From a virus (lineage: Duplodnaviria; Caudoviricetes): a stretch of 57,789 nt of DNA. The notes beneath the pieces were generated by a model. The model made no database searches, was not told where the DNA came from, and saw nothing but the letters and a program-made list of their open reading frames with translations. A program made the position numbers and the translations under genes. How positions within the stretch are numbered: the first letter of the stretch is position 1; each line of letters begins with the position of its first letter. Of the stretch, positions 1,575-41,448 are shown piece after piece. The DNA lies in the IMG/VR virus record IMGVR_UViG_3300044617_001276, positions 1-57,789 of that record; one strand, 5' to 3'.

Positions 1575-2002
1575 GTCTTCGGATACTTTGCCTTGACCGC
1601 TGCAATCTGAGCCGTCATCGCAGCCGCAGCATCGCCACCCTTCCACATCGCATCCAGCTGGTCAGCCAATGATGGATACTCAGCACGCCGCTTGGCATAG
1701 TAGTCAGGGTTGTCAGGCCGCACGACCTCGGACTTATCAATATCCACTGTCTGTGGCTCACCACCCATAGGATCAGGAATCTCCCGAGTCTTAGGTGTCA
1801 ATGCAGCCCAAGCAGCTTCTTTGGCATCAATGTCAGCATAGATTGCCGCCTCTTTGGATGCGATATAAGCCGACAGATCAACGCCCGGAGGAATAAACAA
1901 CGTCCAGTCGTACGTCTGCCCGTTATGCTCAACCTTCAGATAAGCCAGCGCACGCTCTTCGTTTGGAGCAATGTTCGATGCAACGCCTTCCAATGAAATC
2001 AT
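1571..2002 (-). CDS. Tail-fibre assembly/chaperone-like protein
   Basis: The C-terminal YYAKRRAEYPSLADQLDAMWK...IAAVKAKYPK is typical of small proteins that follow phage fibre genes. Confidence 0.6.
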   Translation of the reverse strand: MISLEGVASNIAPNEERALAYLKVEHNGQTYDWTLFIPPGVDLSAYIASKEAAIYADIDAKEAAWAALTPKTREIPDPMGGEPQTVDIDKSEVVRPDNPDYYAKRRAEYPSLADQLDAMWKGGDAAAAMTAQIAAVKAKYPKT

Positions 2003-4755: not shown

Positions 4756-4765
4756 GGCGTAATCC

Positions 4766-6160
4766 TTAGAACTTGTTCAGGTATGAGCTTAGGCAGGTGT
4801 CAAGGCCGAAGGGTATGGCGGGGTTGGTGGAGATTTTTTGGCCCCTTACTCCGCTTTGAGGAATGAAGTAAATTTCTCCAGTAGGTGATAACACTCCACC
4901 CCTAGAATTTGGATTTGATTGAACTAATGTGTAGGTAGACACAACGCCTGTCAAATAATTAATTTTTTGACCTCTTGCCGCATTACTTCCCGGAACAAAA
5001 TGTATATCGCCGTTAGGAGCTAACACGCCGCCAACATAATTTGTATATTGTTCAATTATAGAAAATGTAGAAACAACACCTGATGTTGAAATTTTTTGTC
5101 CAACAGGGGCTGACTCAAAAGGGACAAAATAAATTTCGCCATTTGCGGCAAGAACGCCCCCGATGTTTACCTTACCATCAATAAATGTATAAGCTAATGA
5201 ATACGTAGACACAACACCTGCTGCTGATACTTTTTGCCCTCTGCGAGAGCTATATGGAACAAAATGAATATCTCCATTAGGAGCGAGAACCCCGCCAATA
5301 TATGCGCCTTGAGCGCGATCCGATGTATATACCAATGAATAAGTAGATACCACTCCAGCGGCAGAAACTTTTTGCCCAACCGCTGCAAAATATGGAACAA
5401 AATGTACGTCTCCGTTAGGAGCTAACACGCCGCCAGCATAAGCTGTTGCTGTTGTATAAACCAATGAGTATGTAGACACAACCCCAGAAGCATTTATTTT
5501 TTGCCCTCTATTCGCACCGTGAGGAACAAAATGTATATCTCCATTTGATGCTAATACGCCACCAATATAATTGCCAGCCGTATATACAAGAGAATAAGTT
5601 GATACTGTTCCAGTAAGATAATTAATTTTTTGGCCTACAACTGCACCATAAGGCACAAAATGTATATCCCCATTGGGGGCTAAAACACCCCCCCAATAAT
5701 CTCCTACTGTATTTACTACGCTATACGTACTAACTATCCCTGCAACACCGTTATTCCTAAACGTCACCCCAGCGTTGATGCTCTGGTACAGGTTCTTCTG
5801 GAAGTTGTCAAACGCTACGCCATCCGTGCCAATAGAACTGTTGTCCCCTGTCGGCGCTGATCCCTGTGTGTTCTCTGCTGGTTGCGGTACGTAGACATCT
5901 TTCGACCCCGCCGCAAAGTCAATCACCGATCCGGTAGACGAAGCCAGCACGGTATCGCGGGATAAGGTCGTACCACTAGCGGTATACGTGCCTATTCCTA
6001 CTTCCCACTGAGTTCCACCTACGATGGTGTAATAGGTCTGATTGCCATCGCCCACGCCGGAAAAGTTCTGATAGCCAGTAGATGCTGCCCCTAGCGTGAA
6101 CGTACCTGTCCCTGTCGTGGTGCTCGTAACTTTTATGCGGTCTTTGGTAACAAACGCCAT
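4766..6160 (-). CDS. Putative receptor-binding protein 2: same architecture, 7 repeats
   Basis: Paralogue of its neighbours with seven GGVL.PNG repeats. Ends LNKF. Confidence 0.75.
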   Translation of the reverse strand: MAFVTKDRIKVTSTTTGTGTFTLGAASTGYQNFSGVGDGNQTYYTIVGGTQWEVGIGTYTASGTTLSRDTVLASSTGSVIDFAAGSKDVYVPQPAENTQGSAPTGDNSSIGTDGVAFDNFQKNLYQSINAGVTFRNNGVAGIVSTYSVVNTVGDYWGGVLAPNGDIHFVPYGAVVGQKINYLTGTVSTYSLVYTAGNYIGGVLASNGDIHFVPHGANRGQKINASGVVSTYSLVYTTATAYAGGVLAPNGDVHFVPYFAAVGQKVSAAGVVSTYSLVYTSDRAQGAYIGGVLAPNGDIHFVPYSSRRGQKVSAAGVVSTYSLAYTFIDGKVNIGGVLAANGEIYFVPFESAPVGQKISTSGVVSTFSIIEQYTNYVGGVLAPNGDIHFVPGSNAARGQKINYLTGVVSTYTLVQSNPNSRGGVLSPTGEIYFIPQSGVRGQKISTNPAIPFGLDTCLSSYLNKF

Positions 6161-6170
6161 GACAATAATC

Positions 6171-7559
6171 CTAGAACTTGTTCAGGAAAGAACTGAGGCA
6201 GATGCCGGGGCCGAGCGGGGAGCCGGGGTTGGTAGAGATTTTTTGAACTGGTTGATTGGTATTACTATCAAATGTAGGAAGAAAATAAATTTCTCCGTTT
6301 GGCGTTAAAACACCACCGGCATAAGCACCGACTGTCGTATAAATTAAAGAATAAGTTGATACTACGCCTGCTGCTGATACTTTTTGACCAACCGTTGCAT
6401 TTCTCGGAACAAAATGAATGTCGCCGTTAGGGGCTAACACTCCGCCACGATAACCATTTGTTAATGTATAAACTAAAGAGTATGTAGTCACTACTCCAGC
6501 AATAGATATTTTTTGACCTCGACGTTCTGGAACATAATGAATGTCACCGTTTGGTGCTAAAACACCTCCCCAAGACCCTGCTCCCGTATAAACTAAAGAA
6601 TAAGTTGATACTACGCCAGAGATCGAAATCTTTTGTCCTACGCGAGCAAAGTCAGAAATAAAATGTATATCTCCGTTTGGGGCTAAAACACCACCTCGAT
6701 ATGCTTCGCTTGTTGTATACACAAGAGAATATGTTGAAACAACACCAGCAGAAGATACTTTCTGTCCACGCACCGCCTCATTAGGAACAAAGTGTATATC
6801 TCCGTTGGGGGCAACAACACCACCTATATACGCACCATTAGAATTTGTGTAAACCAAAGAATAAGTAGAAACAACACCAGAAGCAGATATTTTTTGACCA
6901 ACCTGAGCGGCATAAGGAACAAAATGAATATCGCCATTAGGAGCTAAAACTCCGCCACTATATGTGCCTACCGTATAAACCAATGAATAAGTAGAACTAA
7001 CGCCCGTAACAGGGTTAATTTTTTGTCCTCTATTTGCTGACTTTGGAACAAAATGTATATCACCGTTTGGGGCTAAAACACCACCTTCATAAGCGGCTTG
7101 TGTTGTGTAAACCAAATTAAACGTACTTACAATCCCATTAGTTCCATTGTTCCCGAACGTAGTACCACCTGCTACACCGTTATTAAGCGCTGCTTGAAAC
7201 GCAGTCCAGCCTGAGAGATCAGTACCTATCTCACTATCATCACAGTACGGAACGCCCAAAGGCATCGCCGCAGCTGGGTAAGCACACAGCACATCTTTGG
7301 TACCGGCTGAGAAATTAACTAGCGCACCGCTATTCGATGAACCAAACACTAGCTGTCTGGATAACGTCGTACCTGAAGAGGTGTACGTACCCTTGCCTAC
7401 TTCCCACTCAGTCGTGCCTTTGATGACGTAGTAGGTTTCGTTGCCGTTGCCGATGACAGAAAAGGACTGATAGCCTGCCGCTGCAGAACCAAGGGTGATC
7501 GTCCCCGTACCTGTTGTCGTGGTAGTGGACTTGACTCTGTTTTTGAGTACGAGCGCCAT
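6171..7559 (-). CDS. Putative receptor-binding protein 1: same architecture, 7 repeats
   Basis: Start placed at MALVLKNRVK, with a TAATG overlap at 7559. Seven repeats. Ends LNKF. Confidence 0.75.
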   Translation of the reverse strand: MALVLKNRVKSTTTTTGTGTITLGSAAAGYQSFSVIGNGNETYYVIKGTTEWEVGKGTYTSSGTTLSRQLVFGSSNSGALVNFSAGTKDVLCAYPAAAMPLGVPYCDDSEIGTDLSGWTAFQAALNNGVAGGTTFGNNGTNGIVSTFNLVYTTQAAYEGGVLAPNGDIHFVPKSANRGQKINPVTGVSSTYSLVYTVGTYSGGVLAPNGDIHFVPYAAQVGQKISASGVVSTYSLVYTNSNGAYIGGVVAPNGDIHFVPNEAVRGQKVSSAGVVSTYSLVYTTSEAYRGGVLAPNGDIHFISDFARVGQKISISGVVSTYSLVYTGAGSWGGVLAPNGDIHYVPERRGQKISIAGVVTTYSLVYTLTNGYRGGVLAPNGDIHFVPRNATVGQKVSAAGVVSTYSLIYTTVGAYAGGVLTPNGEIYFLPTFDSNTNQPVQKISTNPGSPLGPGICLSSFLNKF

Positions 7560-8029
7560 TAGGTGACATTCCCTGAAACAACACAAACGGTGCCAGATAC
7601 AAACAGGATGCTTGCAATACCACGAGTCGCTAATGTCATCGTCGCCTTATCAGTGTCCGTTCCGGCAATATAAGCCGTCGTAATCGTACAAGTAATCGTA
7701 ATCCCTGCGGTCGTATTGTTGAAGATAATGACAGCATCACCTGCCGCAAACGTCGCATCAGGGATCGTAATCGAGCCGCCTGTGCCAACTTCAATAGTCT
7801 GACCAACGTCTGTGGTCAATAAGGTGTAATTGGTTGTTTTTGCAGCGCCTGAAATTGGAATGCCGGGTGCTGCCAACATCTCTACCGTTCCAGACGAATT
7901 CTCGCAGTACAACTTCATGTCTGCGATGTTCAATCCAAGTTCACCTTGCGCTAGGTTCGCAGCAGAAGGCGCGTTGCCTGCGGTGGTGCTGTGATAGAGT
8001 TGGATTGGTGTGTAACCGGTTTGTGCCAT
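7559..8029 (-). CDS. Tail-fibre adaptor-like protein
   Basis: N-terminal IQLYHSTTAGNAPSAANLAQGELGLNIADMKLY resembles fibre head-attachment (Mtd-N-like) segments. Thr-rich. Confidence 0.6.
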   Translation of the reverse strand: MAQTGYTPIQLYHSTTAGNAPSAANLAQGELGLNIADMKLYCENSSGTVEMLAAPGIPISGAAKTTNYTLLTTDVGQTIEVGTGGSITIPDATFAAGDAVIIFNNTTAGITITCTITTAYIAGTDTDKATMTLATRGIASILFVSGTVCVVSGNVT

Positions 8030-31797: not shown

Positions 31798-32541
31798 ATG
31801 AAAACACTACCCGCTTCCGCTCTCGCCACTGTCGCCGCACCAACCGTCAGCGAGCGTTACCAGTTCATTAACTCCGGCGAGATCATCGATCGCTTCGCGC
31901 AAGAAGGTTGGAAGGTTGCTCAAGCCACTGTCGCGGCTCCGCGCAAGCGTGACCCGCTGTTCGCCAAGCACATGATCGACTTCCGGCATCCAGACTTCCA
32001 GGAAATCAACGGTGCCGTACCGCGTATCATCTTAGTCAACAGCCACGACGGTTCGTCTTCGGCGCGCGTGTTGGCCGGTGTGTTCCGGTTCGTTTGCAGC
32101 AATGGGCTCGTCGTCGGCAACACTGCCGGGCGGGAAGTCGTGCGCCACACGGGTGACGCAGCGGCTGACTTGATTCACCGCATGCAGCAGCTGGCGCGCA
32201 ACACGTCTGACCTCTACAACAAAATCGACCGCTGGTCTCGGATTGACCTGACCAAGAACCAGCGGCTGGAGTTCGCCAAGTTCGCCGCACAACTGCGTTG
32301 GGGTGACGCGCAGCGCTTTTCCCCGGCTGAGCTGCTGGACGCGCGTCGCGCAGAAGACGACAGGGGTGACCTCTGGACAACCTTCAACCGCGTCCAGGAA
32401 AACACCGTGCGCGGCGGCATTGAGGGCCTTTCCCGCTCAGGTCGTGCAGCCACCTCCCGGCCACTGAGCGACATCAGCCGCTCAGTTGACTACAACGCGC
32501 AGTTGTGGCAACTGGCAGAAGAAGTTGCCGAAACGTGGTAA
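31798..32541 (+). CDS. DUF932-family protein
   Basis: SERYQFI, KHMIDFR, NSHDGSS, GVFRFVCSNGLV and DLWTTFNRVQEN. Confidence 0.85.
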   Translation: MKTLPASALATVAAPTVSERYQFINSGEIIDRFAQEGWKVAQATVAAPRKRDPLFAKHMIDFRHPDFQEINGAVPRIILVNSHDGSSSARVLAGVFRFVCSNGLVVGNTAGREVVRHTGDAAADLIHRMQQLARNTSDLYNKIDRWSRIDLTKNQRLEFAKFAAQLRWGDAQRFSPAELLDARRAEDDRGDLWTTFNRVQENTVRGGIEGLSRSGRAATSRPLSDISRSVDYNAQLWQLAEEVAETW

Positions 32542-32585: not shown

Positions 32586-33149
32586 ATGCCAACCATCATC
32601 CGTGACCGCGACGCCGTGAAGGGTGCCGCAATGGAGGATCTGAACCACACTTACCGTCAGCTGAAAGGCGAACCCGGCTTCAAAGGGTTCAGCAACCGCG
32701 CAGCGGCAGAAGTGCAGGTCAACATGGCCATCATGGCCGCGCAAGACGCTGTTGGGCGCGCTGGTGTGCCCAAAGGCGTGACGCCGGGCGCGCTGACGCC
32801 GGGCGAGATAAAATCCAAAAATCCTTACAAGGAGGGCACATTGAGTCACCAACTGCATGAGGCGGTCTCTGAACAGAAACCCATCGAGCCGCGCCCAAAA
32901 GCTTCCGAGCAACCCAAGGAAAAGCGCGCCAAGCGCCTCACCATCAACAAGGTGCGCGCCACCAACGCGGGTGAGTCTCGCCCACAAGCTGGCAGCATCC
33001 GCAATCAGGTCTTGCAATACGTGCAAAACGCGCCGGAGCAAACCTGCACCGTCGCAGAGCTGGAAGAACACTTCCAACAAAACGTGCGCGGCTACCTGCA
33101 AAAGTTGGTTGAGAAGAATCATCTCACCATCATTGAGGATGAGGAATGA
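32586..33149 (+). CDS. Hypothetical protein with C-terminal winged-helix-like segment
   Basis: Start MPTIIRD. C-terminal SIRNQVLQYV....CTVAELEEHF...VRGYLQKLVEKNHL. Confidence 0.65.
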   Translation: MPTIIRDRDAVKGAAMEDLNHTYRQLKGEPGFKGFSNRAAAEVQVNMAIMAAQDAVGRAGVPKGVTPGALTPGEIKSKNPYKEGTLSHQLHEAVSEQKPIEPRPKASEQPKEKRAKRLTINKVRATNAGESRPQAGSIRNQVLQYVQNAPEQTCTVAELEEHFQQNVRGYLQKLVEKNHLTIIEDEE

Positions 33150-34045
33150 CTGCGCCTGTGATCGTCGGTGCTGGCCTCGCTGGGCTCATCGCAGCCCATG
33201 CGTGGCCCAACGCCACCGTCGTGGAGGCGTCATCTCAACCGCGCGCCGCGCACAAGGCGTTGTTGCGGTTCCGCTCTGACGCCGTCGCGCGGCTCACCGG
33301 CATCGAGTTCCGGCGGGTGCGTGTGCGCAAAGGCATCTGGGCTGAGAACGCCTACCAACCCGCCACAATCCGTTGGGCCAACTTGTACGCACAAAAGGTC
33401 ATCAATGAACTCAAAGGTGACCGCAGCATTTGGAACCTTGAGACAGCGGAGCGGTTCATTGCGCCGGACGATTTGTATGAGCAGCTGGTGACGTCAGTGG
33501 GTGACCGCATCAACTGGGACACCCCGGCTGAGTTCAAGAGTTCGCGGCCCCACATCTCTACCGCGCCGCTGCCGGTGGTGTTGAGCATCTTGGGTTGGCC
33601 AGCGCCGGTGACGTTCTCTCGCTCCGGCATCACGGTGCATCGTTGGCGCATCATTGGCGCAGACGTTTTCCAGACGGTCTATTTCCCTGAACTGCACTTG
33701 AATGTTTACCGAGCCAGCATCACCGGCGACACACTCATCGTCGAAACCGTCGGGCCGATGGGTGACATGGACGACGACGCCATCAGCGCGGCGTTCGGCA
33801 TCAAGCTTGCATCGTGCGAGTCGCTTGGTTCAGTCGACCAGAAGTACGGCAAGATAGCGCCCATCGACGACAACCTACGCAAGCAGCTGTTGTTCCGGCT
33901 CACGCACGAGCGCAACATATATTCGCTCGGACGGTTCGCCACGTGGCGCAACATCCTCTTGGACGACGTGGTGGACGACATCGCGGCAATCAAGAAGCTG
34001 CTCAAGGCCAACAGCGCCTACGACATCCGGAGGGCCGCTGCGTGA
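33146..34045 (+). CDS. FAD-dependent oxidoreductase, UDP-galactopyranose mutase/amine-oxidase-like fold
   Basis: N-terminal IVGAGLAGL...VVE dinucleotide motif, ISTAPL, and C-terminal NIYSLGRFATWRNILLDDVV. Confidence 0.78.
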   Translation: MTAPVIVGAGLAGLIAAHAWPNATVVEASSQPRAAHKALLRFRSDAVARLTGIEFRRVRVRKGIWAENAYQPATIRWANLYAQKVINELKGDRSIWNLETAERFIAPDDLYEQLVTSVGDRINWDTPAEFKSSRPHISTAPLPVVLSILGWPAPVTFSRSGITVHRWRIIGADVFQTVYFPELHLNVYRASITGDTLIVETVGPMGDMDDDAISAAFGIKLASCESLGSVDQKYGKIAPIDDNLRKQLLFRLTHERNIYSLGRFATWRNILLDDVVDDIAAIKKLLKANSAYDIRRAAA

Positions 34046-34500
34046 ACTGCCCCATTTGTGGTTCGGAGAGCACGGTCATCGGTGTGGCTCCAAAGCAGCA
34101 AGACCATTGCGTAGAGTATGCACGCATATGCGACCGCAAGCATCGGTTCACAACAGTCGAGGTGCACGTGTCGCAGCTCGGTGACAAGCGGGAATTCGCT
34201 TGCGCAGTACGCAACATAACAAGGCGCATCGGTCGGTTCAATCGTGACTTGCTCATCTTCATGGACAAACGTCCAGCGAAAGTCGTCGCGAGCGAACTGG
34301 GTATCACCTCTACGCGTGTGCGGCAAATACGCGCATCGCAGTATGAGTTCTCTCCGCACAAGAGAATTGCGAAAATTGATTTAAACTCAGAAAGGAACAA
34401 TTATGAAAGTCACGCTCATCAGCACAACGCCGGAAGCCAAGGAACTCTTGATCTTCACGAAGTCAACCCGGCTGACCATGTCGCCGGGGTTGATGGATGA
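34042..34500 (+). CDS. NrdR-like Zn ribbon plus HTH protein
   Basis: GTG start. CPICGS.S.V...R.C...HRFTTVE, then AKVVASELGITSTRVRQIR. The 3' end overlaps thyX by about 100 nt. Confidence 0.6.
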   Translation: MNCPICGSESTVIGVAPKQQDHCVEYARICDRKHRFTTVEVHVSQLGDKREFACAVRNITRRIGRFNRDLLIFMDKRPAKVVASELGITSTRVRQIRASQYEFSPHKRIAKIDLNSERNNYESHAHQHNAGSQGTLDLHEVNPADHVAGVDG

Positions 34501-35122
34501 AATCCGCGCATGGCCGGAGGAAAAGAAACTCGCCGAACTTGAATATATGGCCAACACCATTCCCAGCTCTTGGGAGTTCGTTGACTACGTATTCATGATT
34601 GAAGGCGTCAGCCGCGCGTTCACTCATCAGTTCGTGAGATCACGTCAAGGTTCGTACGCGCAGCAAACGATGCGTGTGCTCAACATGGGCGAATATGATT
34701 ACGTCTACACCGACAGGATTCTCGCTGACGTGCAGAAGCTCGGTTTGGTCGACATCATCAATGAGAACATTCGGCTCTGTTACAGCAAGCTGATTGAGCT
34801 CGGGTTGCCTGCGGAAGATGCACGCGGCATCTTGCCGACAAACATCGCCACCAACATCGTCGCCAAGTTCAACTTGCGCGCCTTTGTCGACCTCGCCAAG
34901 AGTCGCACCGGTGGACGCACACAAAACGAATACCAGAAGGTCATGAACGCCATGGTCGACGAAGTATTGAAAGTGCACCCATGGGCTGAGAAGTTCTTGT
35001 TCCAAGCCGGGCGAGATTACTTCGCGGAGATCGAAGCGTTCGCCGAGCGCGAATATGGCGGCAACTTGCTCAAGAAAGGCGAGCTGCTTAAGATTGTTGA
35101 CAAGATGCGCAAGGGTGGCTGA
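34403..35122 (+). CDS. thyX: Divergent flavin-dependent thymidylate synthase (ThyX family)
   Basis: IEGVSRAFTHQFVRSRQGSYAQQTMR and EDARGILP...T......NLR......SR....Q.E. The signature is non-canonical (see findings). Confidence 0.85.
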   Translation: MKVTLISTTPEAKELLIFTKSTRLTMSPGLMDEIRAWPEEKKLAELEYMANTIPSSWEFVDYVFMIEGVSRAFTHQFVRSRQGSYAQQTMRVLNMGEYDYVYTDRILADVQKLGLVDIINENIRLCYSKLIELGLPAEDARGILPTNIATNIVAKFNLRAFVDLAKSRTGGRTQNEYQKVMNAMVDEVLKVHPWAEKFLFQAGRDYFAEIEAFAEREYGGNLLKKGELLKIVDKMRKGG

Positions 35123-35123
35123 C

Positions 35124-35486
35124 ATGACCCGGATCAATTGTGTCCCACCCGAGGAACTCTCCAGAGAGCACCTGCTGGCTGAATATCGTGAGTTGCCGCG
35201 CGTTTTTAACTTGGCTGCCAAGGCCTACTCATCGGGCCGTAAAATAAAAGCGCCTGAGCGTTATACGCTGGGCACAGGTCACGTCAAGTTCTTTTACCAG
35301 CGGCTCGGCTGGTGCTTGGATCGGTTCTTGGCGCTGCGGCTCGAGATGTTGGTGCGCGGCTACAAACCCAACTACGCCCAGCCACCAACGGTGGAGTTGC
35401 CGCCAGAATGGTGGGGCAACTGGGAACCTGACGCAGCCGCAATGCAACTCAATCGCGAACGAATCTTAGAAAGGAAAACATCATGA
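35124..35486 (+). CDS. denV: Pyrimidine-dimer DNA glycosylase (T4 endonuclease V family)
   Basis: MTRIN......L...HL.AEYRELPRVF with Thr2, Arg22, Glu23 and Arg26 conserved, plus YTLGTGHVKFFY. Confidence 0.93.
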   Translation: MTRINCVPPEELSREHLLAEYRELPRVFNLAAKAYSSGRKIKAPERYTLGTGHVKFFYQRLGWCLDRFLALRLEMLVRGYKPNYAQPPTVELPPEWWGNWEPDAAAMQLNRERILERKTS

Positions 35487-35968
35487 GCCGGTTCATCATT
35501 GTAGACTTAGACAACTGTATCGCAGACGATGCTTGGCGCATCCCGCACATAAATTGGCAAAAGAGTGACCCCATGGAACGGTACCACGACTACCATTCGC
35601 TCAGTGGGTTCGACGATGTCGGCAACATGATTATATTCGAGCGCCATTATGACGCTGTGCCGATTATCTTCACTGCGCGGCCTGTGCGCTACAGCGCCGT
35701 GACCAAGGAATGGTTGCGCCGCAACGAGATACCTTATGAATACCTTGTCATGCGCAATGACAACGACAATCGTCATTCGTTGGACTTGAAGCGCACCATG
35801 CTCAACTGGCTGCCGCACATCTATGGTGTGCCGACAGAAGACATCGTCGCAGCGTATGACGACAGACCTGACGTGGTAGAGATGTACATCCGCGCAGGGA
35901 TAAAAGCCGAGCAGCGCGCAATCCACAATGTTTGCGCTTACACAAAACCAACCAAGGAGACCGCATGA
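35483..35968 (+). CDS. HAD-superfamily phosphatase (PNKP phosphatase/nucleotidase-like)
   Basis: Motif I VDLDNC, motif II FTAR, motif III K, motif IV YDDR. Confidence 0.85.
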   Translation: MSRFIIVDLDNCIADDAWRIPHINWQKSDPMERYHDYHSLSGFDDVGNMIIFERHYDAVPIIFTARPVRYSAVTKEWLRRNEIPYEYLVMRNDNDNRHSLDLKRTMLNWLPHIYGVPTEDIVAAYDDRPDVVEMYIRAGIKAEQRAIHNVCAYTKPTKETA

Positions 35969-36252
35969 CAACAGCAGCAGACATCCTGGCCGAAATGGCC
36001 GACACCTACCGTGAGCGCAACAAGGTCTACGGTGACAACTACAAGCGTGTCGGTGCCGTCATGGCGGCAATGTTCCCGAACGGTGTCGACTTGTTCACCG
36101 AGGAAGACTACAACGTCTGGCACCTTTTTGAGTTGATGGTCGTGAAGCTCACCCGGTTCGCCAACAGCGGCCTGACGCACGAAGACTCGATCCATGACGC
36201 TGCAGTTTACGCCGCCATGGTCGAATCATTGATCAGAAAGGAAAAACAATGA
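35965..36252 (+). CDS. DUF6378-like all-alpha protein (MazG/nucleotide pyrophosphohydrolase-related)
   Basis: ER.KVYGDNY...KLTRF.....HEDSIHDAAVYAAM. Confidence 0.7.
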   Translation: MTTAADILAEMADTYRERNKVYGDNYKRVGAVMAAMFPNGVDLFTEEDYNVWHLFELMVVKLTRFANSGLTHEDSIHDAAVYAAMVESLIRKEKQ

Positions 36253-36926
36253 GCAAGATTTTGGTGACCGGCTCTGGGGCCGGGCTCGGCAAGCTCGTCG
36301 TTGCAGCGTTGCGCCGCGATGGGCATGACGTAATTGGTTTCGACCGCAAGAACGGCAATGACGTGGTCGACCCGCAGGAAACATTTGGTGACTGCCCGGC
36401 GTTGGACATCCTCATCAACTGCGCGGGGATAAACGTCACAGGTTGGTTGGAGGATTTCCCTGAGGAAAGCTGGGATGACGTGATGAACATAAACGCCAAG
36501 GGCATCTTCCGCATGACGCAGTGGGCGCTACCGGCGTTGGTGAAGTCGAAAGGTACCGTGCTGAACATTGTGAGCAATGCGTCGCACATGCCAATGACGA
36601 CGTCTCTTGCCTACAACGCCTCCAAAGGGGCCGCGCACATCATGACGTTGCAGCTGGCCCGTGAGTTAAGCAAGCGGCACGGCATCACCGTCTTCGGCAT
36701 CAGCCCCAACAAGCTCAAGGGTACCGAAATGTCCAAAGACATCGAGGAACAAGTGATTAAGCATCGCGGCTGGACGCGCGAATATGCAGAGCAATACCAA
36801 ATCAATGCGTTGCTCGCAGGTGAGGAAACAGACCCAGCACAGCTCGCTGAGTTCATTGCTTTCCTTCTTTCAACCAAGCCGCGTCACAAGTTCCTGACCG
36901 GCTGCATTCTTCCTTATGGAGCTTGA
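36249..36926 (+). CDS. Short-chain dehydrogenase/reductase
   Basis: TGSGAGLG, NCAG, catalytic S (IVSNAS) and YNASK. Confidence 0.92.
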   Translation: MSKILVTGSGAGLGKLVVAALRRDGHDVIGFDRKNGNDVVDPQETFGDCPALDILINCAGINVTGWLEDFPEESWDDVMNINAKGIFRMTQWALPALVKSKGTVLNIVSNASHMPMTTSLAYNASKGAAHIMTLQLARELSKRHGITVFGISPNKLKGTEMSKDIEEQVIKHRGWTREYAEQYQINALLAGEETDPAQLAEFIAFLLSTKPRHKFLTGCILPYGA

Positions 36927-36927
36927 T

Positions 36928-37197
36928 ATGAAAAAGCTACTCATTTTCGCCGCGCTGTTCTTGACAGCTTGTTCCAGCCCACCGCAGCGCAAGTCTTGGG
37001 AGCAGACATTGATCGTCGAGCCGCACGTTTATGGCCTGTCACGCGGCCAAGTCATCAGCGCCATTTTAGATTGTGAAGAGACCGGAACACGGCCCGTCAT
37101 GATCTACGCAACCCGCACCATCAACGGTCATCCGACCGAGATCGTCACCGAAGTTTCTTGTGCACCAATGCGCCGTCATTACCATCGTAAATTCTGA
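36928..37197 (+). CDS. Small lipoprotein
   Basis: MKKLLIFAALFLTA-C lipobox. Confidence 0.7.
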   Translation: MKKLLIFAALFLTACSSPPQRKSWEQTLIVEPHVYGLSRGQVISAILDCEETGTRPVMIYATRTINGHPTEIVTEVSCAPMRRHYHRKF

Positions 37198-37207
37198 AAG
37201 GGAAATA

Positions 37208-37687
37208 ATGAAATTCTTCATTGAACAAATTGCAATCTGTCCCACCGATCCAGTCAAGGCGAAAAGTTTATTGACTGACTTGGGGTTGGATGAGTGGGTG
37301 GAAGACCATGTGGTGGCTGACGGGCGCGTGTTCGGATTGTCTGGCACCAATGAGGCCAACTTGTCCTTCAACTATCAAAACACTCGTCCGGGCGACAAGC
37401 CGCTGGAGCTGGAGATTCTGAACTACACAACCGGCCCCAACTGGATGTCAGGGCGGCAACCGACCGTCTCCCACATCGGCATGCACTGCACCGAGGAAGA
37501 GCTGGAGCGGTTCCGTCAGAAGCTCAACACCATGGGCATCAAGGTTGCGCAAGAAGTTTTCACGCGCAGCCACACCAATCAATTTCTGATTGAACAAAAG
37601 CGCAAGTACCATTACGTAATCTTCGACACGCGCGCCATCTTGGGCGTGGACCTGAAGTTCATCGTGCGTCGGGAGAATGCGGCGTGA
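37208..37687 (+). CDS. VOC/glyoxalase-fold enzyme (methylmalonyl-CoA epimerase-like)
   Basis: IEQIAI, ELEIL.Y..GPNW, VSHIGMH and Y.YVIFDTR..LG..LKFI. Confidence 0.7.
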   Translation: MKFFIEQIAICPTDPVKAKSLLTDLGLDEWVEDHVVADGRVFGLSGTNEANLSFNYQNTRPGDKPLELEILNYTTGPNWMSGRQPTVSHIGMHCTEEELERFRQKLNTMGIKVAQEVFTRSHTNQFLIEQKRKYHYVIFDTRAILGVDLKFIVRRENAA

Positions 37688-38241
37688 GCAAATTTGTCCT
37701 CGTATTCGACACAGAAACAACCGGGTTGACGTTGCACCCGGAAGCGCCGCTCGCCAAGCAACCGAAAATCATCGAGCTTGGCGCGGCATTGTTGAATGAG
37801 CGCGGCGAAGTTGTTGAGACACTCTCTCAACTCTTGCACCCCGGCGAGGACATCACGGACGAGATCACTCGGATCACCGGCATCACCAATGGGGATCTCG
37901 TCGGTGCACCAACATTCAAGGATGCGTTGCCGCAAATGCGACACATCTTTGAGCAAGCATTCGCTGTGTTCGCGCACAACTTGCCGTTCGACAGAGCCAT
38001 GATCCGTAATGACTTGGCCCGGATTGATTGTCTGGACTTCCCGTGGCCTGCGCAAGAATATTGCACCGTCGGGTTGCACAAAGATCAATGGGGCCGCAAT
38101 CCGAAGTTGACAGAGCTTTATGAGTTCACACTGAACAAGCCGCTGCCACAAACCCACCGGGCGCTGGACGACGTCATGGCGCTGGTGGAAGTGGTTGTCG
38201 CCTTGGAGTTGCACACGATGGCATTTGAGGAGCGCGCATGA
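37684..38241 (+). CDS. dnaQ: DEDDh 3'-5' exonuclease (DnaQ/epsilon-like)
   Basis: VFDTETTG, AHNLPFD and HRALDD. Confidence 0.9.
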   Translation: MSKFVLVFDTETTGLTLHPEAPLAKQPKIIELGAALLNERGEVVETLSQLLHPGEDITDEITRITGITNGDLVGAPTFKDALPQMRHIFEQAFAVFAHNLPFDRAMIRNDLARIDCLDFPWPAQEYCTVGLHKDQWGRNPKLTELYEFTLNKPLPQTHRALDDVMALVEVVVALELHTMAFEERA

Positions 38242-41069
38242 CCTTACCACAGCTGCGTTGCCGCACTGAGTTCAGTTTCCGGCAAGCATTCGGCCCTGTT
38301 CCGCGTGTTGCCGCTGCGGTGAAGGCGCTCGGCGCGCCAGCGGCAGGCATCGTAGACGGCGGCACATGGGGTCATGTCCGTTGGGCCAAAGCTGCAGCCG
38401 CGCAAGGGTTCAAGCCGCTGTTCGGCACGGAGTTTTCCGTCACGCTGCCAGACGGGCGCAAGCCGCAAGCATGGGCGCTGGCCGAGGACACGCGCGCATT
38501 TTATCGTTGGAGCACGGCGCTCCGACAAAAAGATGCTGACTCTGTCGCGCTGCTGCGCGAGAGCAAAGGTGTTATACGCTTCGCTGGCGCGGCGCTCACC
38601 GACCCTGATACGTTTGATTATGTTGACCTGAACCCGGCTTCTCCTATTGCACAGAGAGTTTCATTGGCGCTTGCACGCAACACAGGAAAACCCCTAGTCC
38701 TGAGCAGCGCCAACTTTTATCCTCAACCAAGCGACTACGCAGCATTCATGTCGATTGGTGGCCGCGAGGCGACAACGCCGCAGCACATCCTCTCCGATCA
38801 GGAGTTGCGCGCGGCGCTGAAAATCCTGGACGATGACGCTTGGGAGCGAGCGGTACGCAACACCCACGAAGTCGCCGAGCGGTGTGCCGGGGCATTGCCC
38901 ACCGCGCCCATCATCCATGTGGACGGTGACTTGCGTGCACTGGCCGAGGAAGGGCGACAGCGTCGACTCAAGCTCGGTCACTTGCCTGCTTGGCCGCAGG
39001 AATATGAAGACCGGTTGCAACGTGAATTGACAGCCATTGAGCAGAAGAATTTCGAGAGCTACTTCATTGTGGTGGCAGACTTAATCGCTTGGGCCAAGGA
39101 GCGCATGCTGGTGGGGCCGGGGCGCGGCTCGTCAGCCGGGTCACTGCTTTGTTACTTGTTGGGCATCACGGAAGTTGATCCAATCCCGCACGGACTGTTG
39201 TTTGAGCGCTTCATTGACCTGACGCGCAAGGATTTGCCCGACATCGACATCGACTTTTCCGACACCAAGCGCGACCAGTGTTTCGACTACCTTGCTGAGA
39301 AATACGGGCGGCAATGTGTGGCGCGCATCGGCAACGTGAACACCCTGAAGCCGCGCAGCGTGATGGCCGAGGTCTGCAAGCGGTTCGGCATCCCTGACAA
39401 AGAGCGGTTCGACCTGCTCAACGTATTGATTGAATATTCTTCTGGAGACTCACGTTATGGAAAAGGGCTCGAAGACACCCTCAACAACACCGACATCGGG
39501 CGGCGTTTCATGGAACGCAATCCAAAGGCGGTGGTTATGTCCGAAGTGGAAAATCATGCATGGCACACTGGTGTACACGCCGCAGGAGTCATCGTTTGTA
39601 ATGTTCCGGTGGACGAATACTGCACGGTTGGAGCGGATGGTGTGGCGCACATCGACAAGCCTGACAGTGAATACCTGAACCTACTCAAGATTGACGCGCT
39701 GGGGCTGCGCACGTTGGGCGTCATCGAGGACAGCGGCGTCACCAACGCCGACGAACTCTACGCATTGAAGCTCGACGACCCAAAGGTGCTCGACATATTC
39801 AACCAGCGCAAATACACCGGCATATTCCAGTTCGAAGGACAAAGCCAGCGGTCAATCTCCGCGCAGGTCTTGGTGGATAGTTTCCGTACGGTTGACCACT
39901 TGACGGCGTTGGCCAGACCGGGGCCGCTCGGCGGCGGCGCGACAGGCAAATACATCGCACGCAAGGCCGGTGTTGAGTCAGTGACTTACACTCACCCGGC
40001 GTTGGAAGAGCTGCTGGCCGACACTTACGGTGTGGTGCTCTATCAAGAGCAAGTGATGCGCATCGTGCGCGACATCGGCAAGTTCTCGTGGGACGAAACA
40101 ACCGTCATCCGCAAGGCGATGTCAGGCCGCAAGGGCAAAGAATATTTCGACCAGCAAGGAGAAAAGTTCATCGCTGGCGCGGCGCAAGACAACATTGATG
40201 AGAGAACCGCCAAAGACATTTGGAACGAGATCTGTAACTTCGGCGCTTGGGGCATGAACAAGAGTCACACCTGTGCGTACGCGGTGATCAGTTATTGGTG
40301 CGCATGGATGAAGGCGTACCACCCGCTGGAATACGCAGCAGCGTGCTTGCGCTCGGCCAAGGACGACGACCAGACCATGGAGATCCTGCGTGAGATGGCG
40401 CGCGAAGGCGTCAACTACGTTGCATTCGACCCTGAACTCTCTGACGTCAATTGGTCTGTGCAAGACGGCAAGTTGGTGGGCGGCTACATGAACCTTGTCG
40501 GGTTCGGCCCAGCCAAAGCAGTCGCCGCAGTGGAAGCGCGGCGGCTCGGCAAGGTTGACGACAAACTGCAAAAACGCATCGCTGAAGCGCACATCAAGTT
40601 CAATGATCTCTACCCAATCAGCCACAACTACGCTGCTTGGTATGCTGACCCGGTGGCGCATGGGTGTCGCATTGGGTCTGTGATTTATACGGCTGACAAG
40701 TTGCCTGACGGCGCTGACGTTTTGTTCATCGGCAAAATTGCCAAGAAAGAACTGCGTGACGAAAATGAAACAGTCCGGGTCGCGCGGCGTGATGGACGCA
40801 AGCTCTCAGGACAGACATTGTTCGCTGACTTTTTCTTGAAGGACGACACAGGCATCCCGATCATTTGCCGCATTGACCGGTTCAAGTATGAGCCGCTGGG
40901 CCGTGTCGCTATGGAGCGGTTGGTGGCTGAACAGGATGTGTTGCTCGTGCGCGGCAGGAAGATTCCAGGATTCGGCATGATAAAGGTCGAACGTGTCAAG
41001 GTATTGAATCGTGAGGAGGCATTGAGTGAGTCGACGCCCGGAACAACGCTTGTGGGACAGGCTGCGTAA
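38238..41069 (+). CDS. dnaE: Family C DNA polymerase (Pol III alpha, DnaE-like)
   Basis: Degenerate PHP domain, then GPGRGSSAGSL, PDIDIDF, HAAGV, KIDALGL, RPGP, YQEQVM and NKSH..AY. Confidence 0.95.
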   Translation: MTLPQLRCRTEFSFRQAFGPVPRVAAAVKALGAPAAGIVDGGTWGHVRWAKAAAAQGFKPLFGTEFSVTLPDGRKPQAWALAEDTRAFYRWSTALRQKDADSVALLRESKGVIRFAGAALTDPDTFDYVDLNPASPIAQRVSLALARNTGKPLVLSSANFYPQPSDYAAFMSIGGREATTPQHILSDQELRAALKILDDDAWERAVRNTHEVAERCAGALPTAPIIHVDGDLRALAEEGRQRRLKLGHLPAWPQEYEDRLQRELTAIEQKNFESYFIVVADLIAWAKERMLVGPGRGSSAGSLLCYLLGITEVDPIPHGLLFERFIDLTRKDLPDIDIDFSDTKRDQCFDYLAEKYGRQCVARIGNVNTLKPRSVMAEVCKRFGIPDKERFDLLNVLIEYSSGDSRYGKGLEDTLNNTDIGRRFMERNPKAVVMSEVENHAWHTGVHAAGVIVCNVPVDEYCTVGADGVAHIDKPDSEYLNLLKIDALGLRTLGVIEDSGVTNADELYALKLDDPKVLDIFNQRKYTGIFQFEGQSQRSISAQVLVDSFRTVDHLTALARPGPLGGGATGKYIARKAGVESVTYTHPALEELLADTYGVVLYQEQVMRIVRDIGKFSWDETTVIRKAMSGRKGKEYFDQQGEKFIAGAAQDNIDERTAKDIWNEICNFGAWGMNKSHTCAYAVISYWCAWMKAYHPLEYAAACLRSAKDDDQTMEILREMAREGVNYVAFDPELSDVNWSVQDGKLVGGYMNLVGFGPAKAVAAVEARRLGKVDDKLQKRIAEAHIKFNDLYPISHNYAAWYADPVAHGCRIGSVIYTADKLPDGADVLFIGKIAKKELRDENETVRVARRDGRKLSGQTLFADFFLKDDTGIPIICRIDRFKYEPLGRVAMERLVAEQDVLLVRGRKIPGFGMIKVERVKVLNREEALSESTPGTTLVGQAA

Positions 41070-41448
41070 AGCTGCTGCCGGTCGCGTATATACCGAACGG
41101 ATCGAAAATTTGGTAGGCGTCGGTCGGCCTGACGTCGACACGCTGGTGAAGGGAAGCTTCATCCCGATCGAGTTGAAATATGTGGCGCAGTGGCCAACAC
41201 GGACAACGTCCAAGGTGCTCGGCAAAGACGGTTTGTCGCAAGCACAAAAGAATTGGCACTTGAACTGGCGCAACTGGGGCGGCATCTCGCTCATTGTTGT
41301 TGGCGTGGGAGATGAGGTGTTTGTGTTCAGCGGCGCGACCGCTGACCACGTCAACGAATACAACACAGCCGAGTTCAGGTCAGCGGCGATGTTGATTGGG
41401 TTGAACAACATCGTTGACATGCTGGTGAATTTAGGAGAACGCAAATGA
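41026..41448 (+). CDS. PD-(D/E)xK nuclease (VRR-NUC/resolvase-like)
   Basis: E..LW...RIEN....GRPDV......IELK...QKNWH, upstream of the SNF2 helicase. Confidence 0.8.
   Translation: MSRRPEQRLWDRLRKAAAGRVYTERIENLVGVGRPDVDTLVKGSFIPIELKYVAQWPTRTTSKVLGKDGLSQAQKNWHLNWRNWGGISLIVVGVGDEVFVFSGATADHVNEYNTAEFRSAAMLIGLNNIVDMLVNLGERK

What the first reader, a model, noticed from the sequence alone, without database searches (positions are those of the whole stretch)
33146..41069. Candidate new phage nucleotide-modification pathway coupled to a phage-encoded DnaE
Seen: one tightly coupled operon (mostly ATGA/GTGA overlaps) with FAD oxidoreductase, variant ThyX, DenV, HAD phosphatase, DUF6378/MazG-like protein, SDR, lipoprotein, VOC enzyme, DnaQ-like exonuclease and DnaE. 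Established: phages that replace a base typically cluster a thymidylate-synthase-family or other base-making enzyme with nucleotide-pool-clearing hydrolases and their own polymerase. SDR, VOC and mutase-like flavoproteins are sugar/carbonyl-tailoring enzymes and are not part of ordinary dTMP synthesis. Inference: the operon builds a non-canonical pyrimidine dNTP, for example a C5-(poly)hydroxyalkyl-uracil from a sugar-derived aldehyde, conceptually like the 5-(4,5-dihydroxypentyl)uracil of Bacillus phage SP15. It would probably serve as anti-restriction/anti-CRISPR armour. It matches none of the pathways I know (hmC/hmU, 7-deazaguanine, Z, dU). Caveat: I see no dNMP kinase in the genome.
Basis: partly seen in the sequence, partly recalled or inferred. 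Interest (0 to 1): 0.92.

Follow-up and report, generated by a model that had tools for sequence, protein, structure and literature searches.

The report
Candidate genes for sugar-modified thymine
This lake-water phage carries a conserved gene set beside its DNA polymerase that is the best candidate for making the sugar-decorated thymine recently found in the DNA of related Pseudomonas therapy phages, whose genes for it are still unknown.

Summary
The operon is real. Eight gene junctions are 4-nt ATGA/GTGA overlaps. Eight of the ten labels hold. "MazG-like" and "lipoprotein" are unsupported, and an NrdR-like gene was missed.

It is the window's copy of a module conserved across PB1-like phages. 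A UGM/amine-oxidase-fold flavoprotein is followed by a ThyX in 80 of 80 IMG/VR loci. In GenBank phages 362 records hold the flavoprotein and 363 hold its ThyX subfamily at 80% coverage or more. HAD and DUF6378 are near-constant. SDR and VOC come as an optional pair: both 37, neither 24, one 1, of 62 loci.

A 2025 preprint (PMC12191111) shows by LC-MS that Pbunavirus F8 and 14-1 replace about a quarter of T, at TG, with sugar-derived thymidines. It names no genes.

The window, PB1, Bas98 and a Ralstonia phage all avoid restriction palindromes except those containing TG/CA (0 of 63 depleted). Four phages without the module do not spare them (20 of 60). Pooled loci agree: 52 of 53 (p=7e-10) against 13 of 29 T7-like controls.

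The full-replacement dNTP, pool-clearing and polymerase-coupling model is not. The gene-to-chemistry link remains inference.

The parts
33146..34045 (+). 299-aa flavoprotein, virus-only family (phrog_4828), UGM/amine-oxidase/renalase-like fold. It has an invariant GAGLAGLxAAHAWP motif and many invariant Arg/Lys. It is the core partner of the ThyX subfamily.
   Evidence: followed by ThyX in 80/80 loci; found in 362 phage records
34042..34500 (+). It overlaps the ThyX start by 98 nt. It is present only in close relatives.
   Evidence: Pfam Zn_ribbon_NrdR 1.7e-4, below cutoff; present in 10 of 62 complete loci
34403..35122 (+). ThyX of a distinct phage subfamily with motif THQxVR[STN]Rxx[SA]Yxx[QE]T[MS]R in place of RHRxxSxxxxSxR. 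The nucleotide-binding arginines are kept.
   Evidence: 363 phage records at 80% coverage or more
35124..35486 (+). DenV-type pyrimidine-dimer DNA glycosylase, an accessory gene.
   Evidence: Pyr_excise 6.7e-12 and phrog_1183 4e-37; present in 11 of 62 loci
35483..35968 (+). HAD phosphatase of the Pnkp type with a DxDxC motif. It is fused to DUF6378 in PB1, Carpasina, Pluto and Bas98.
35965..36252 (+). DUF6378-like 95-aa protein with invariant Y, K, R, H, D, S, D, Y. It is not shown to be MazG.
36249..36926 (+). Classical short SDR (TGxxxGxG, YxxxK). Optional cassette partner of the VOC protein.
   Evidence: SDR+VOC both 37, neither 24, SDR only 1, of 62 loci
36916..37197 (+). 93-aa ORF with a lipobox-like signal. 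A doubtful gene.
   Evidence: no family hit; 0 of 80 loci match; no RBS
37208..37687 (+). VOC-fold protein, closest to methylmalonyl-CoA epimerase. Invariant Q7, E67, E69, H89, H93, D148.
37684..38241 (+). DEDDh DnaQ-like 3'-5' exonuclease.
   Evidence: RNase_T 1.7e-22 and phrog_192
38238..41069 (+). DnaE-type DNA polymerase III alpha, about 50% identical to Carpasina, MyoSmar and Wifcevirus.

Best explanation
The interval is this phage's copy of a module conserved across the PB1-like phage supergroup (Pbunavirus, Wifcevirus, Myosmarvirus, Carpasinavirus and many uncultured lake and soil phages).

Core: a UGM/amine-oxidase-fold flavoprotein, a distinct ThyX subfamily, a Pnkp-type HAD phosphatase and DUF6378, lying directly upstream of DnaQ and DnaE. 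Optional: an SDR-VOC pair, DenV and an NrdR-like protein.

Most likely the phage replaces part of its thymidines, those in TG context, with a sugar-derived hypermodified thymidine, as measured for Pbunavirus F8 and 14-1. At least part of the biosynthesis is probably encoded here.

Inferred mechanism (not shown):
- The ThyX variant and its obligate flavoprotein partner generate the activated C5-methylene or hydroxymethyl level of the pyrimidine.
- HAD, and SDR-VOC where present, prepare or tailor the sugar or sugar alcohol.
- At least one step reads DNA sequence (TG), so it is post-replicative.

The benefit is protection of TG-containing sites from restriction.
For: 1. Synteny. The order flavoprotein / ThyX / HAD-DUF6378 / (SDR / VOC) / Exo / DnaE is found in Carpasina, Pluto, Bas98 and PB1.

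2. Co-occurrence. ThyX lies downstream of the flavoprotein in 80 of 80 IMG/VR loci. Of 62 loci complete from the flavoprotein to Exo, 57 have both HAD and DUF6378; 37 have SDR+VOC, 24 have neither, 1 has SDR only.

3. Matching record counts in 50,697 phage records. The flavoprotein is in 362. The ThyX subfamily is in 363 at 80% coverage or more. Genus tallies are near-identical: Pseudomonas 292 and 291, Escherichia 27 and 27, Serratia 9 and 9, Xanthomonas 6 and 6. The pair also occurs in Rhizobium jumbo phages.

4. Experiment in relatives. PMC12191111 (abstract, section 8 and found passages read) reports novel nucleosides of 362 U in F8 and 390 U in 14-1, about a quarter of T replaced, sugar-derived, at a TG motif. 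[quoted passage not shown] 5. Footprint (O/E for TG/CA-containing 6-mer palindromes against other A/T-containing ones; 'depleted' = O/E below 0.5 with at least 3 expected):
- window 0.89 (0 of 16 depleted) against 0.74 (10 of 34), p=0.020
- PB1 0.98 (0 of 16) against 0.75 (11 of 37)
- Bas98 0.99 (0 of 16) against 0.81 (9 of 33)
- Ralstonia PY059YO380 0.95 (0 of 15) against 0.71 (7 of 27)
- Controls without the module deplete TG/CA words: T7 7 of 15, phiKMV 5 of 14, LUZ24 6 of 15, lambda 2 of 16.
- Pooled: 53 non-redundant module loci give 0.899 against 0.680, with TG/CA higher in 52 of 53 (Wilcoxon 7e-10). 29 non-redundant T7-polymerase loci give 0.596 against 0.588, 13 of 29, p=0.95. TG/CA is the strongest of 10 dinucleotide classes.

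6. No Pfam N6_N4, D12 or C5 DNA methyltransferase in the window.

7. [quoted passage not shown]

8. A Microbacterium phage has a DenV-like protein, a Rossmann oxidoreductase, a phosphatase, SDR (31%), VOC (39%) and DUF6378 (47%) beside DnaE, plus a ThyX with the same variant motif.
Against: - No experiment links any gene here to the modification.
- The window phage is uncultured and only Logan contigs exist, so its DNA chemistry is untested.
- The window's own footprint is modest: p=0.02, Mann-Whitney p=0.31, and one of 10 classes examined.
- Carpasina has the full module, yet CTGCAG is 0 observed against 21.1 expected and 3 of 16 TG/CA words are depleted. Sparcetus is only weakly consistent.
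- The pooled loci are related phages, and the pooled control is one family (T7-like).
- ThyX passes NCBIfam's equivalog cutoff and keeps the dUMP-binding arginines, so it may simply make dTMP.
- F8 and 14-1 have different modifications, but their flavoprotein (97%), ThyX (94%) and HAD-DUF6378 (79%, mostly a linker indel) differ little. The most divergent gene nearby is ORF70, of unknown function, at 56%.
- No glycosyltransferase, DNA kinase or other DNA-level transferase was recognised. GT2 is absent from PB1, Bas98, Carpasina and the Ralstonia phage.
- Supplements and extended data of the preprint could not be seen and may bear on gene assignment.
Confidence: 0.55

Rival explanations
1. Ordinary housekeeping. 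ThyX makes dTMP and the flavoprotein is a redox helper such as a reductase or a renalase-like nicotinamide repair enzyme. DenV and the Pnkp-type HAD repair DNA ends. SDR and VOC are auxiliary metabolic genes. The clade's thymidine hypermodification is made by other, still anonymous genes elsewhere in the genome.
For: - ThyX passes the TIGR02170 equivalog cutoff and keeps R78, R80, R90, R147, R174 and Q75 equivalents.
- The HAD is closest to the T4 Pnkp phosphatase. DenV is a repair enzyme.
- SDR and VOC are dispensable in 24 of 62 loci.
- The module enzymes are nearly identical between F8 and 14-1 although their modifications differ.
- Most genes of these phages have no known function.
Against: - The ThyX subfamily and the flavoprotein occur in 363 and 362 records, with the pair also present outside the PB1-like group. 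That is unusual for a mere helper.
- The ThyX lacks the His of RHR and the residue aligned to T. maritima His53.
- A UGM-like fold and sugar-type enzymes fit a sugar-derived adduct.
- The same families recur beside DnaE in an actinophage.
- No other recognisable modification enzymes were found.
Confidence: 0.28
2. The operon builds a non-canonical pyrimidine dNTP at the nucleotide-pool level, hydrolases clear the canonical dNTP, and the phage DnaE incorporates the new base genome-wide as anti-restriction armour.
For: - The operon is tightly coupled and ends in DnaQ and DnaE.
- ThyX acts on nucleotides.
- Precedents in T4, SPO1 and S-2L (recalled, not from a call).
Against: - In F8 and 14-1 only about a quarter of T is replaced, and only at TG.
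- The window strongly avoids GC-only sites and AACGTT, AGCGCT and AAGCTT.
- DUF6378 shows no MazG match, and the HAD is Pnkp-type.
- No dNMP kinase was seen among the proteins scanned (not exhaustive).
- Yeast-cloned, hence canonical, JG024 and F8 genomes reboot in defence-deleted hosts (PMC10913387, passages read).
- DnaE is far more widespread than the module: 1398 records against 362.
Confidence: 0.07
3. The TG/CA footprint has another cause, such as an unrecognised sequence-specific methyltransferase, a protein inhibitor, or a mutational or codon bias shared by descent. The window phage's DNA is canonical.
For: - The pooled loci are related, so shared ancestry could inflate 52 of 53.
- Carpasina breaks the pattern.
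- A SAM-methyltransferase domain exists at 1999-3351 on the minus strand.
Against: - The avoided words differ between the window, PB1, Bas98 and the Ralstonia phage. Selection is therefore host-specific, while the sparing of TG/CA is common to all four.
- The expectation model already conditions on 5-mers and 4-mers.
- In PB1's own genus the TG-specific block to restriction enzymes is measured.
- No DNA methyltransferase family was found.
Confidence: 0.1

Closest known systems
Pbunavirus F8 / 14-1 thymidine hypermodification (Yee, Lee et al., bioRxiv 2025, PMC12191111)
   Same: - Same phage supergroup and the same module: flavoprotein ORF65, ThyX ORF59, HAD-DUF6378 ORF57, Exo ORF56, DnaE ORF55.
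- Same genomic footprint of TG-site protection.
   Different: - The window's proteins are only about 41% (flavoprotein, ThyX) to 50% (DnaE) identical to the PB1-group ones.
- The window adds SDR, VOC, DenV and an NrdR-like gene, and splits HAD from DUF6378.
- The window's structural genes gave few family matches in the PHROG scans and were not compared with PB1's.
- The chemistry of the window's DNA is untested.
- The preprint names no biosynthetic genes.
5-hmdU-derived thymidine hypermodification pathways (M6, ViI, SP10, PaMx11; Lee et al., NAR 2021, PMC8989533)
   Same: - Partial, post-replicative replacement of T that blocks restriction.
- The C5 carbon is installed by a thymidylate-synthase-type enzyme.
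- Flavoproteins can take part (PaMx11 gp47).
   Different: - Those pathways use a ThyA-type dUMP hydroxymethylase, the P-loop 5-HMUDK and aGPT-Pplase (passages read).
- None of the ten operon proteins matched such families.
- Here the synthase is ThyX-type and the adduct is a sugar, not an amine or amino acid.
Canonical flavin-dependent thymidylate synthase ThyX (T. maritima TM0449, PDB 1kq4/1o26)
   Same: - Pfam Thy1 over the full length.
- TIGR02170 above cutoff.
- Arg and Gln nucleotide-binding residues conserved.
   Different: - RHR becomes R[STN]R.
- The Ser88 position is Thr, Tyr91 is Val or Ala, and the His53 position is Ile (alignments).
- The roles of these residues are recalled, not taken from a call.
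UDP-galactopyranose mutase (Glf; PDB 3hdq, 3uka)
   Same: - Best structural match: Foldseek E 1.5e-9, TM 0.56-0.66.
- N-terminal FAD Rossmann motif.
- A C-terminal GRFATWRN..LDD stretch that resembles the UGM GR..Y.Y..MD motif (the motif is recalled).
   Different: - About 13% identity, 299 aa against 360-510 aa, and no Pfam GLF hit.
- Amine oxidases (NicA2) and renalase score almost as well.
- Membership is not established.
Bacillus phage SP15 5-(4,5-dihydroxypentyl)uracil and base J (glucosyl-hmU)
   Same: Polyhydroxyalkyl or glycosyl substituents on the C5 side chain of uracil in DNA (recalled).
   Different: The SP15 genes were not examined. JBP-type dioxygenase was not found, and the control search did not ring either.

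Membership tests
ThyX (flavin-dependent thymidylate synthase) | Match to Pfam Thy1 and NCBIfam TIGR02170 above the curated cutoffs | tested here: met
   Thy1 104.6 bits against 24.8; TIGR02170 91.8 bits against 87.9
ThyX (flavin-dependent thymidylate synthase) | ThyX signature motif RHRxxSxxxxSxR (motif recalled) | tested here: not met
   The window reads RSRQGSYAQQTMR. The subfamily consensus is VR[STN]Rxx[SA]Yxx[QE]T[MS]R in 7 aligned phage ThyX and in the 30-row A4 alignment.
ThyX (flavin-dependent thymidylate synthase) | Conserved nucleotide-binding Arg/Gln (T. maritima Q75, R78, R80, R90, R147, R174; roles recalled) | tested here: met
   Q76, R79, R81, R91, R141 and R168 are invariant in 30 sequences; mapped through the alignment.
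ThyX (flavin-dependent thymidylate synthase) | dTMP synthase activity / thyA complementation | not testable with these tools
   Needs a complementation or enzyme assay.
UDP-galactopyranose mutase / GR2 amine-oxidase-like flavoproteins | Fold and FAD-binding Rossmann motif | tested here: met
   GxGxxG plus E27 invariant; Foldseek top hits are UGM, NicA2, renalase and MAO at probability 1.00, TM 0.45-0.66.
UDP-galactopyranose mutase / GR2 amine-oxidase-like flavoproteins | Sequence-family membership (Pfam GLF, Amino_oxidase) | tested here: not met
   Only FAD_binding_2 at E 0.1, below cutoff; no NCBIfam hit; no PDB sequence hit. The nearest Atlas clusters are virus-only with no common Pfam family.
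MazG-like all-alpha NTP pyrophosphohydrolase (for the DUF6378 protein) | Sequence match to MazG-type families or solved MazG structures | tested here: not met
   0 of 27 members match a MazG family at E of 1 or less; 22 of 27 match DUF6378. The PDB profile search returns only weak POU-domain hits.
Known 5-hmdU thymidine-hypermodification systems (5-HMUDK + aGPT-Pplase + ThyA-type hydroxymethylase) | Presence of those enzyme families | tested here: not met
   None of the ten operon proteins matched them in Pfam or PHROGs. The rest of the genome was only partly scanned.
Pbunavirus-type TG-context sugar-thymidine modification | Modified nucleoside in virion DNA | not testable with these tools
   Only Logan contigs of lake metagenomes are available, with no raw or long reads.
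Pbunavirus-type TG-context sugar-thymidine modification | Sparing of TG/CA-containing restriction palindromes from avoidance, as in PB1 | tested here: met
   Window: 0 of 16 depleted against 10 of 34, p=0.020. PB1: 0 of 16 against 11 of 37. Controls: 20 of 60.
Classical SDR | TGxxxGxG cofactor motif and YxxxK catalytic motif; Pfam adh_short | tested here: met
   adh_short 118.7 bits. The motifs are read from the translation. No specific subfamily reaches a curated cutoff.
VOC (glyoxalase/dioxygenase) superfamily | Paired beta-alpha-beta-beta-beta fold | tested here: met
   AF2 pLDDT 95.5. Foldseek 3gm5 methylmalonyl-CoA epimerase, E 7.5e-8, TM 0.69-0.73. Pfam Glyoxalase_4 25.0 bits is below the 27 cutoff.

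The most novel reading that the evidence does not exclude
The ThyX variant and its obligate UGM-fold flavoprotein partner form a new kind of flavin-dependent pyrimidine C5-alkylating system. A reduced-flavin N5 iminium is the chemistry shared by ThyX (methylene relay) and UGM (flavin-sugar adduct). Here it would carry, or couple, a sugar-derived carbon unit onto the uracil/thymine C5 side chain. That would make the tetritol- and pentose-bearing thymidines without a glycosyltransferase, a 5-HMUDK kinase or an aGPT-Pplase. HAD and DUF6378 would supply or attach the sugar at TG sites on DNA, and the SDR-VOC cassette would diversify the sugar between lineages. The system would be ancient, shared by phages of Proteobacteria and Actinobacteria, always beside a DnaE replicase.
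Probability: 0.15. Interest if true: 0.95.

Novelty: new variant of a known kind. Interest (0 to 1): 0.8.

Why it matters
Pbunaviruses are among the phages most used in Pseudomonas therapy. Their DNA was only recently found to be hypermodified, and the genes responsible are not named in print, as far as the library searches show.

This window gives a short, testable list of candidates: flavoprotein, ThyX variant, HAD and DUF6378, with SDR-VOC as an optional cassette.

The analysis also suggests that the same protection extends far beyond Pseudomonas phages. It appears in E. coli Wifcevirus phages, whose unexplained resistance to restriction the BASEL authors noted, in a Ralstonia phage, and in many uncultured lake phages.

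The TG/CA-palindrome footprint is a cheap sequence-only screen for this modification.

If the flavoprotein-ThyX pair does the chemistry, it would be a new biosynthetic route to modified DNA bases.

Tried and rejected
- Complex prediction with two ThyX copies plus the flavoprotein gave no support (score 0.00). This is no evidence either way.
- Megablast of the operon against the phage collection found nothing. Relatives were found only at protein level.
- The look-up of sequencing runs gave 24 lake or freshwater runs, all Logan contigs with no raw or long reads. A base-modification signal could not be examined, and read laying was not used.
- Comparing F8 with 14-1 to find the gene that sets the sugar type was inconclusive. 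Module enzymes are 94-98% identical. The 79% identity of HAD-DUF6378 is mostly a low-complexity linker indel. The most divergent gene, ORF70 at 56%, has no family.
- GT2 glycosyltransferase as the conserved transferase was rejected. It is present in Sparcetus only and absent from PB1, Bas98, Carpasina and the Ralstonia phage. The window has only a sub-threshold GT2 match at 1999-3351 on the minus strand.
- Tet_JBP search: no hit, but the control genomes did not ring either, so this is uninformative.
- hhalign of the flavoprotein family against Sparcetus gp55 gave 58% probability over 82 N-terminal columns. Homology is undecided.
- The SDR could not be placed in a specific subfamily: all NCBIfam scores are far below their cutoffs.
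- Papers read that proved irrelevant: PPAY/PPAT (PMC9348578) and K8 (PMC4773840) are not PB1-like. The Myllykallio review (PMC5954106) had no residue-level text under the terms searched.
- Essoh 2013 (PMC3634792, section 18 read): a PB1-like phage was cut by EcoRI, HindIII, Sau3A and AluI, but not fully by EcoRI and HindIII. This is weak and ambiguous.
- The mass arithmetic is my own, from standard formula weights, not from a call: 5-hmdU 258.23 + tetritol 122.12 - 18.02 = 362.33, and + pentose 150.13 - 18.02 = 390.34.

Full report
**What is there.** The window is a complete 57,789-bp IMG/VR virus record. It is found almost only in lake and freshwater metagenomes. From 30971 to about 45477 all genes lie on the + strand. 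Within the finding's interval, successive genes overlap by ATGA or GTGA at 33146, 34042, 35483, 35965, 36249, 37684 and 38238, and again at 41445. Promoter-like and terminator-like sites are no more frequent than in shuffles.

**Gene identities**:
- a 299-aa flavoprotein with no Pfam family (phrog_4828, unknown function)
- ThyX
- DenV
- a Pnkp-type HAD phosphatase
- a DUF6378-like protein
- a classical SDR
- a doubtful 93-aa lipobox ORF
- a VOC protein
- a DEDDh exonuclease
- DnaE

**The flavoprotein.**
- It has 2549 homologues at E of 1e-5 or less among 5855 candidates, all about 300 aa and unnamed.
- In a 27-row alignment GAGLAGLxAAHAWP, E27 and many Arg/Lys are invariant.
- The AF2 model (pLDDT 85.3) is closest to UDP-galactopyranose mutase (E 1.5e-9, TM 0.56-0.66). 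Nicotine and amine oxidases and renalase follow, all at about 13% identity.
- The Atlas places it in virus-only clusters.

**The ThyX.**
- It passes Pfam and, narrowly, the NCBIfam equivalog cutoff (91.8 against 87.9 bits).
- Aligned to T. maritima ThyX, the signature RHRxxSxxxxSxR reads RSRQGSYAQQTMR, and the position of His53 is Ile.
- The same variant motif occurs in PB1, Carpasina, Pluto, Bas98, a Ralstonia phage, a Rhizobium jumbo phage and a Microbacterium phage.
- The Arg and Gln residues that bind the nucleotide are invariant in 30 sequences.
- What these residues do is recalled knowledge, not a result obtained here.

**The other enzymes.**
- The VOC model (pLDDT 95.5) is closest to methylmalonyl-CoA epimerases.
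- The SDR is generic.
- The best solved relatives of the HAD are T4 Pnkp phosphatase domains.
- DUF6378 shows no MazG relationship.

**Conservation.**
- DnaE is about 50% identical to those of Carpasinavirus, Myosmarvirus, Wifcevirus and Luteibacter phage Pluto.
- Carpasina, Pluto and Bas98 show the same order: flavoprotein, ThyX, HAD-DUF6378 fusion, SDR, VOC, Exo, DnaE. PB1 has it without SDR and VOC.
- Among 80 IMG/VR loci retrieved with the flavoprotein, ThyX lies downstream in 80 of 80.
- Of the 62 loci complete as far as the exonuclease, SDR and VOC are both present in 37, both absent in 24, and SDR alone in 1. DenV occurs in 11 and the NrdR-like gene in 10.
- In the 50,697-record phage collection the flavoprotein occurs in 362 records and this ThyX subfamily in 363 at 80% coverage or more, with near-identical genus tallies. 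VOC occurs in 55 and DnaE in 1398.
- The flavoprotein-ThyX pair also sits about 2 kb apart in a 203-kb Rhizobium phage.
- Microbacterium phage Sparcetus carries a DenV-like protein, a Rossmann oxidoreductase (58% hhalign probability to the flavoprotein N-terminus), a phosphatase, SDR, VOC and DUF6378 in front of DnaE. A 466-aa ThyX with the variant motif lies 3.6 kb downstream.

**The decisive literature.**
[quoted passage not shown] - LC-MS shows novel nucleosides of 362 U (F8) and 390 U (14-1) replacing about a quarter of T. [quoted passage not shown]
- The main text has no occurrence of thymidylate, ThyX or oxidoreductase.
- Two library searches, and the passages of two citing papers, found no gene assignment. 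Supplements were not visible.

**A test on the window itself.**
- The genome strongly avoids particular 6-bp palindromes (observed against expected): CCGCGG 0/24.6, GGCGCC 1/29.2, GCCGGC 3/34.8, CGGCCG 3/17.8, CCCGGG 1/16.3, AACGTT 1/16.2.
- Six of the ten most depleted 6-mers are palindromes, although palindromes are only 39 of the 2907 words with an expectation of at least 7.5. Its DNA is therefore exposed to type II restriction. This argues against cytosine modification and against blanket protection.
- None of the 16 palindromes that contain TG/CA is depleted, against 10 of 34 other A/T-containing ones (Fisher p=0.020; O/E 0.89 against 0.74).
- The same holds in PB1 (0 of 16 against 11 of 37), Bas98 (0 of 16 against 9 of 33) and Ralstonia PY059YO380 (0 of 15 against 7 of 27). 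Each of these avoids a different set of other sites.
- It does not hold in T7 (7 of 15), phiKMV (5 of 14), LUZ24 (6 of 15) or lambda (2 of 16).
- Carpasina is an exception (3 of 16; CTGCAG 0/21.1). Sparcetus is only weakly consistent (1 of 14 against 6 of 22).
- Pooled over 53 non-redundant module-bearing loci (890 kb), TG/CA palindromes have O/E 0.899 against 0.680. TG/CA is higher in 52 of 53 loci (Wilcoxon 7e-10).
- In 29 non-redundant T7-polymerase loci (609 kb) the values are 0.596 against 0.588, with TG/CA higher in 13 of 29 (p=0.95).
- TG/CA is the strongest of ten dinucleotide classes in the module set and shows no effect in the control set.
- Caveats: the module loci are related to each other, and the pooled control is a single phage family.

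**Reading.**
- The proposed logic does not fit. That logic was a new dNTP built in the pool, canonical pools cleared, and a dedicated polymerase. Replacement is partial and TG-specific, SDR and VOC are dispensable for the footprint, DUF6378 is not shown to be a pyrophosphatase, and the HAD is Pnkp-like.
- The best-supported view is that the core quartet (flavoprotein, ThyX variant, HAD, DUF6378) is the leading candidate for the biosynthesis, with at least one DNA-level step.
- This remains inference. ThyX may simply make dTMP. The module enzymes barely differ between F8 and 14-1 although their adducts differ. No transferase was recognised.
- No DNA methyltransferase family was found in the window.

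**Verdict.** A real, conserved and probably functionally coupled module. It is a new variant of a known kind, thymidine hypermodification. The modification itself is already reported for the Pbunavirus relatives, but the genes are unassigned. Interest is high, because it turns an open question into a handful of knock-outs and one LC-MS run.

Noticed in passing
window 34042-34500 (+): An NrdR-like zinc-ribbon ORF with a weak sigma70-r4/HTH signal. It starts on a GTGA overlap with the flavoprotein stop and runs 98 nt into the ThyX gene. It is present only in close relatives (10 of 62 loci). It may regulate the module.
   Followed up: partly
window 1999-3351 (-) and 3373-7586 (-): A 450-aa protein with a C-terminal SAM-methyltransferase domain (Methyltransf_23, 29.9 bits) and a sub-threshold N-terminal GT2 match. 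Beside it are three tandem paralogues of about 460 aa with Vgb_lyase-like beta-propeller matches, possibly receptor-binding proteins.
   Followed up: partly
window, whole genome: Non-palindromic words that look like type IIS sites are also strongly depleted: GGCGGA/TCCGCC 3 observed against 12.3 expected, and GCCCGC/GCGGGC 3 against 12.7.
   Followed up: no
L088/L090 (Microbacterium phage Sparcetus, ON755183.1 37215-49662): An actinophage carries a DenV-like protein, a Rossmann oxidoreductase, a phosphatase, SDR, VOC and DUF6378 in front of a split DnaE. A GT2 glycosyltransferase and a 466-aa ThyX with the same variant motif follow. The module seems far older than the PB1-like group.
   Followed up: partly
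L001 / W02 (Xanthomonas phage Carpasina): It has the full module including SDR and VOC, yet CTGCAG is absent (0 observed against 21.1 expected) and ATGCAT and CCATGG are depleted. Its modification, if any, may differ or may fail against PstI-type enzymes.
   Followed up: no
L202 4925-6229 (-) and L203 15894-17090 (+) (14-1 / F8 ORF70): ORF70 is only 56% identical between F8 and 14-1, while its neighbours are 92-100% identical. It has no family match. It is a candidate for whatever differs between the two phages, including the sugar type.
   Followed up: partly
window 31798-32541 (+) and 41026-41448 (+): A DUF932 protein (Pfam 3.7e-35) lies upstream. A small protein matching phrog_2165 (annotated DNA helicase) sits between DnaE and the SNF2-type helicase. 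Both are conserved in many related loci.
   Followed up: no
PMC3634792 (Essoh et al. 2013), section 18 and the Fig. S3 legend: A PB1-like phage's DNA was not fully digested by EcoRI or HindIII, and the authors mention sequence-specific nicks in a PB1-like genome. This may relate to the modification reported later.
   Followed up: no
window 36916-37197 (+): The 'lipoprotein' ORF has no RBS and no homologue in any of the 80 related loci. Bas98 has two unrelated small ORFs at the same position between SDR and VOC.
   Followed up: partly
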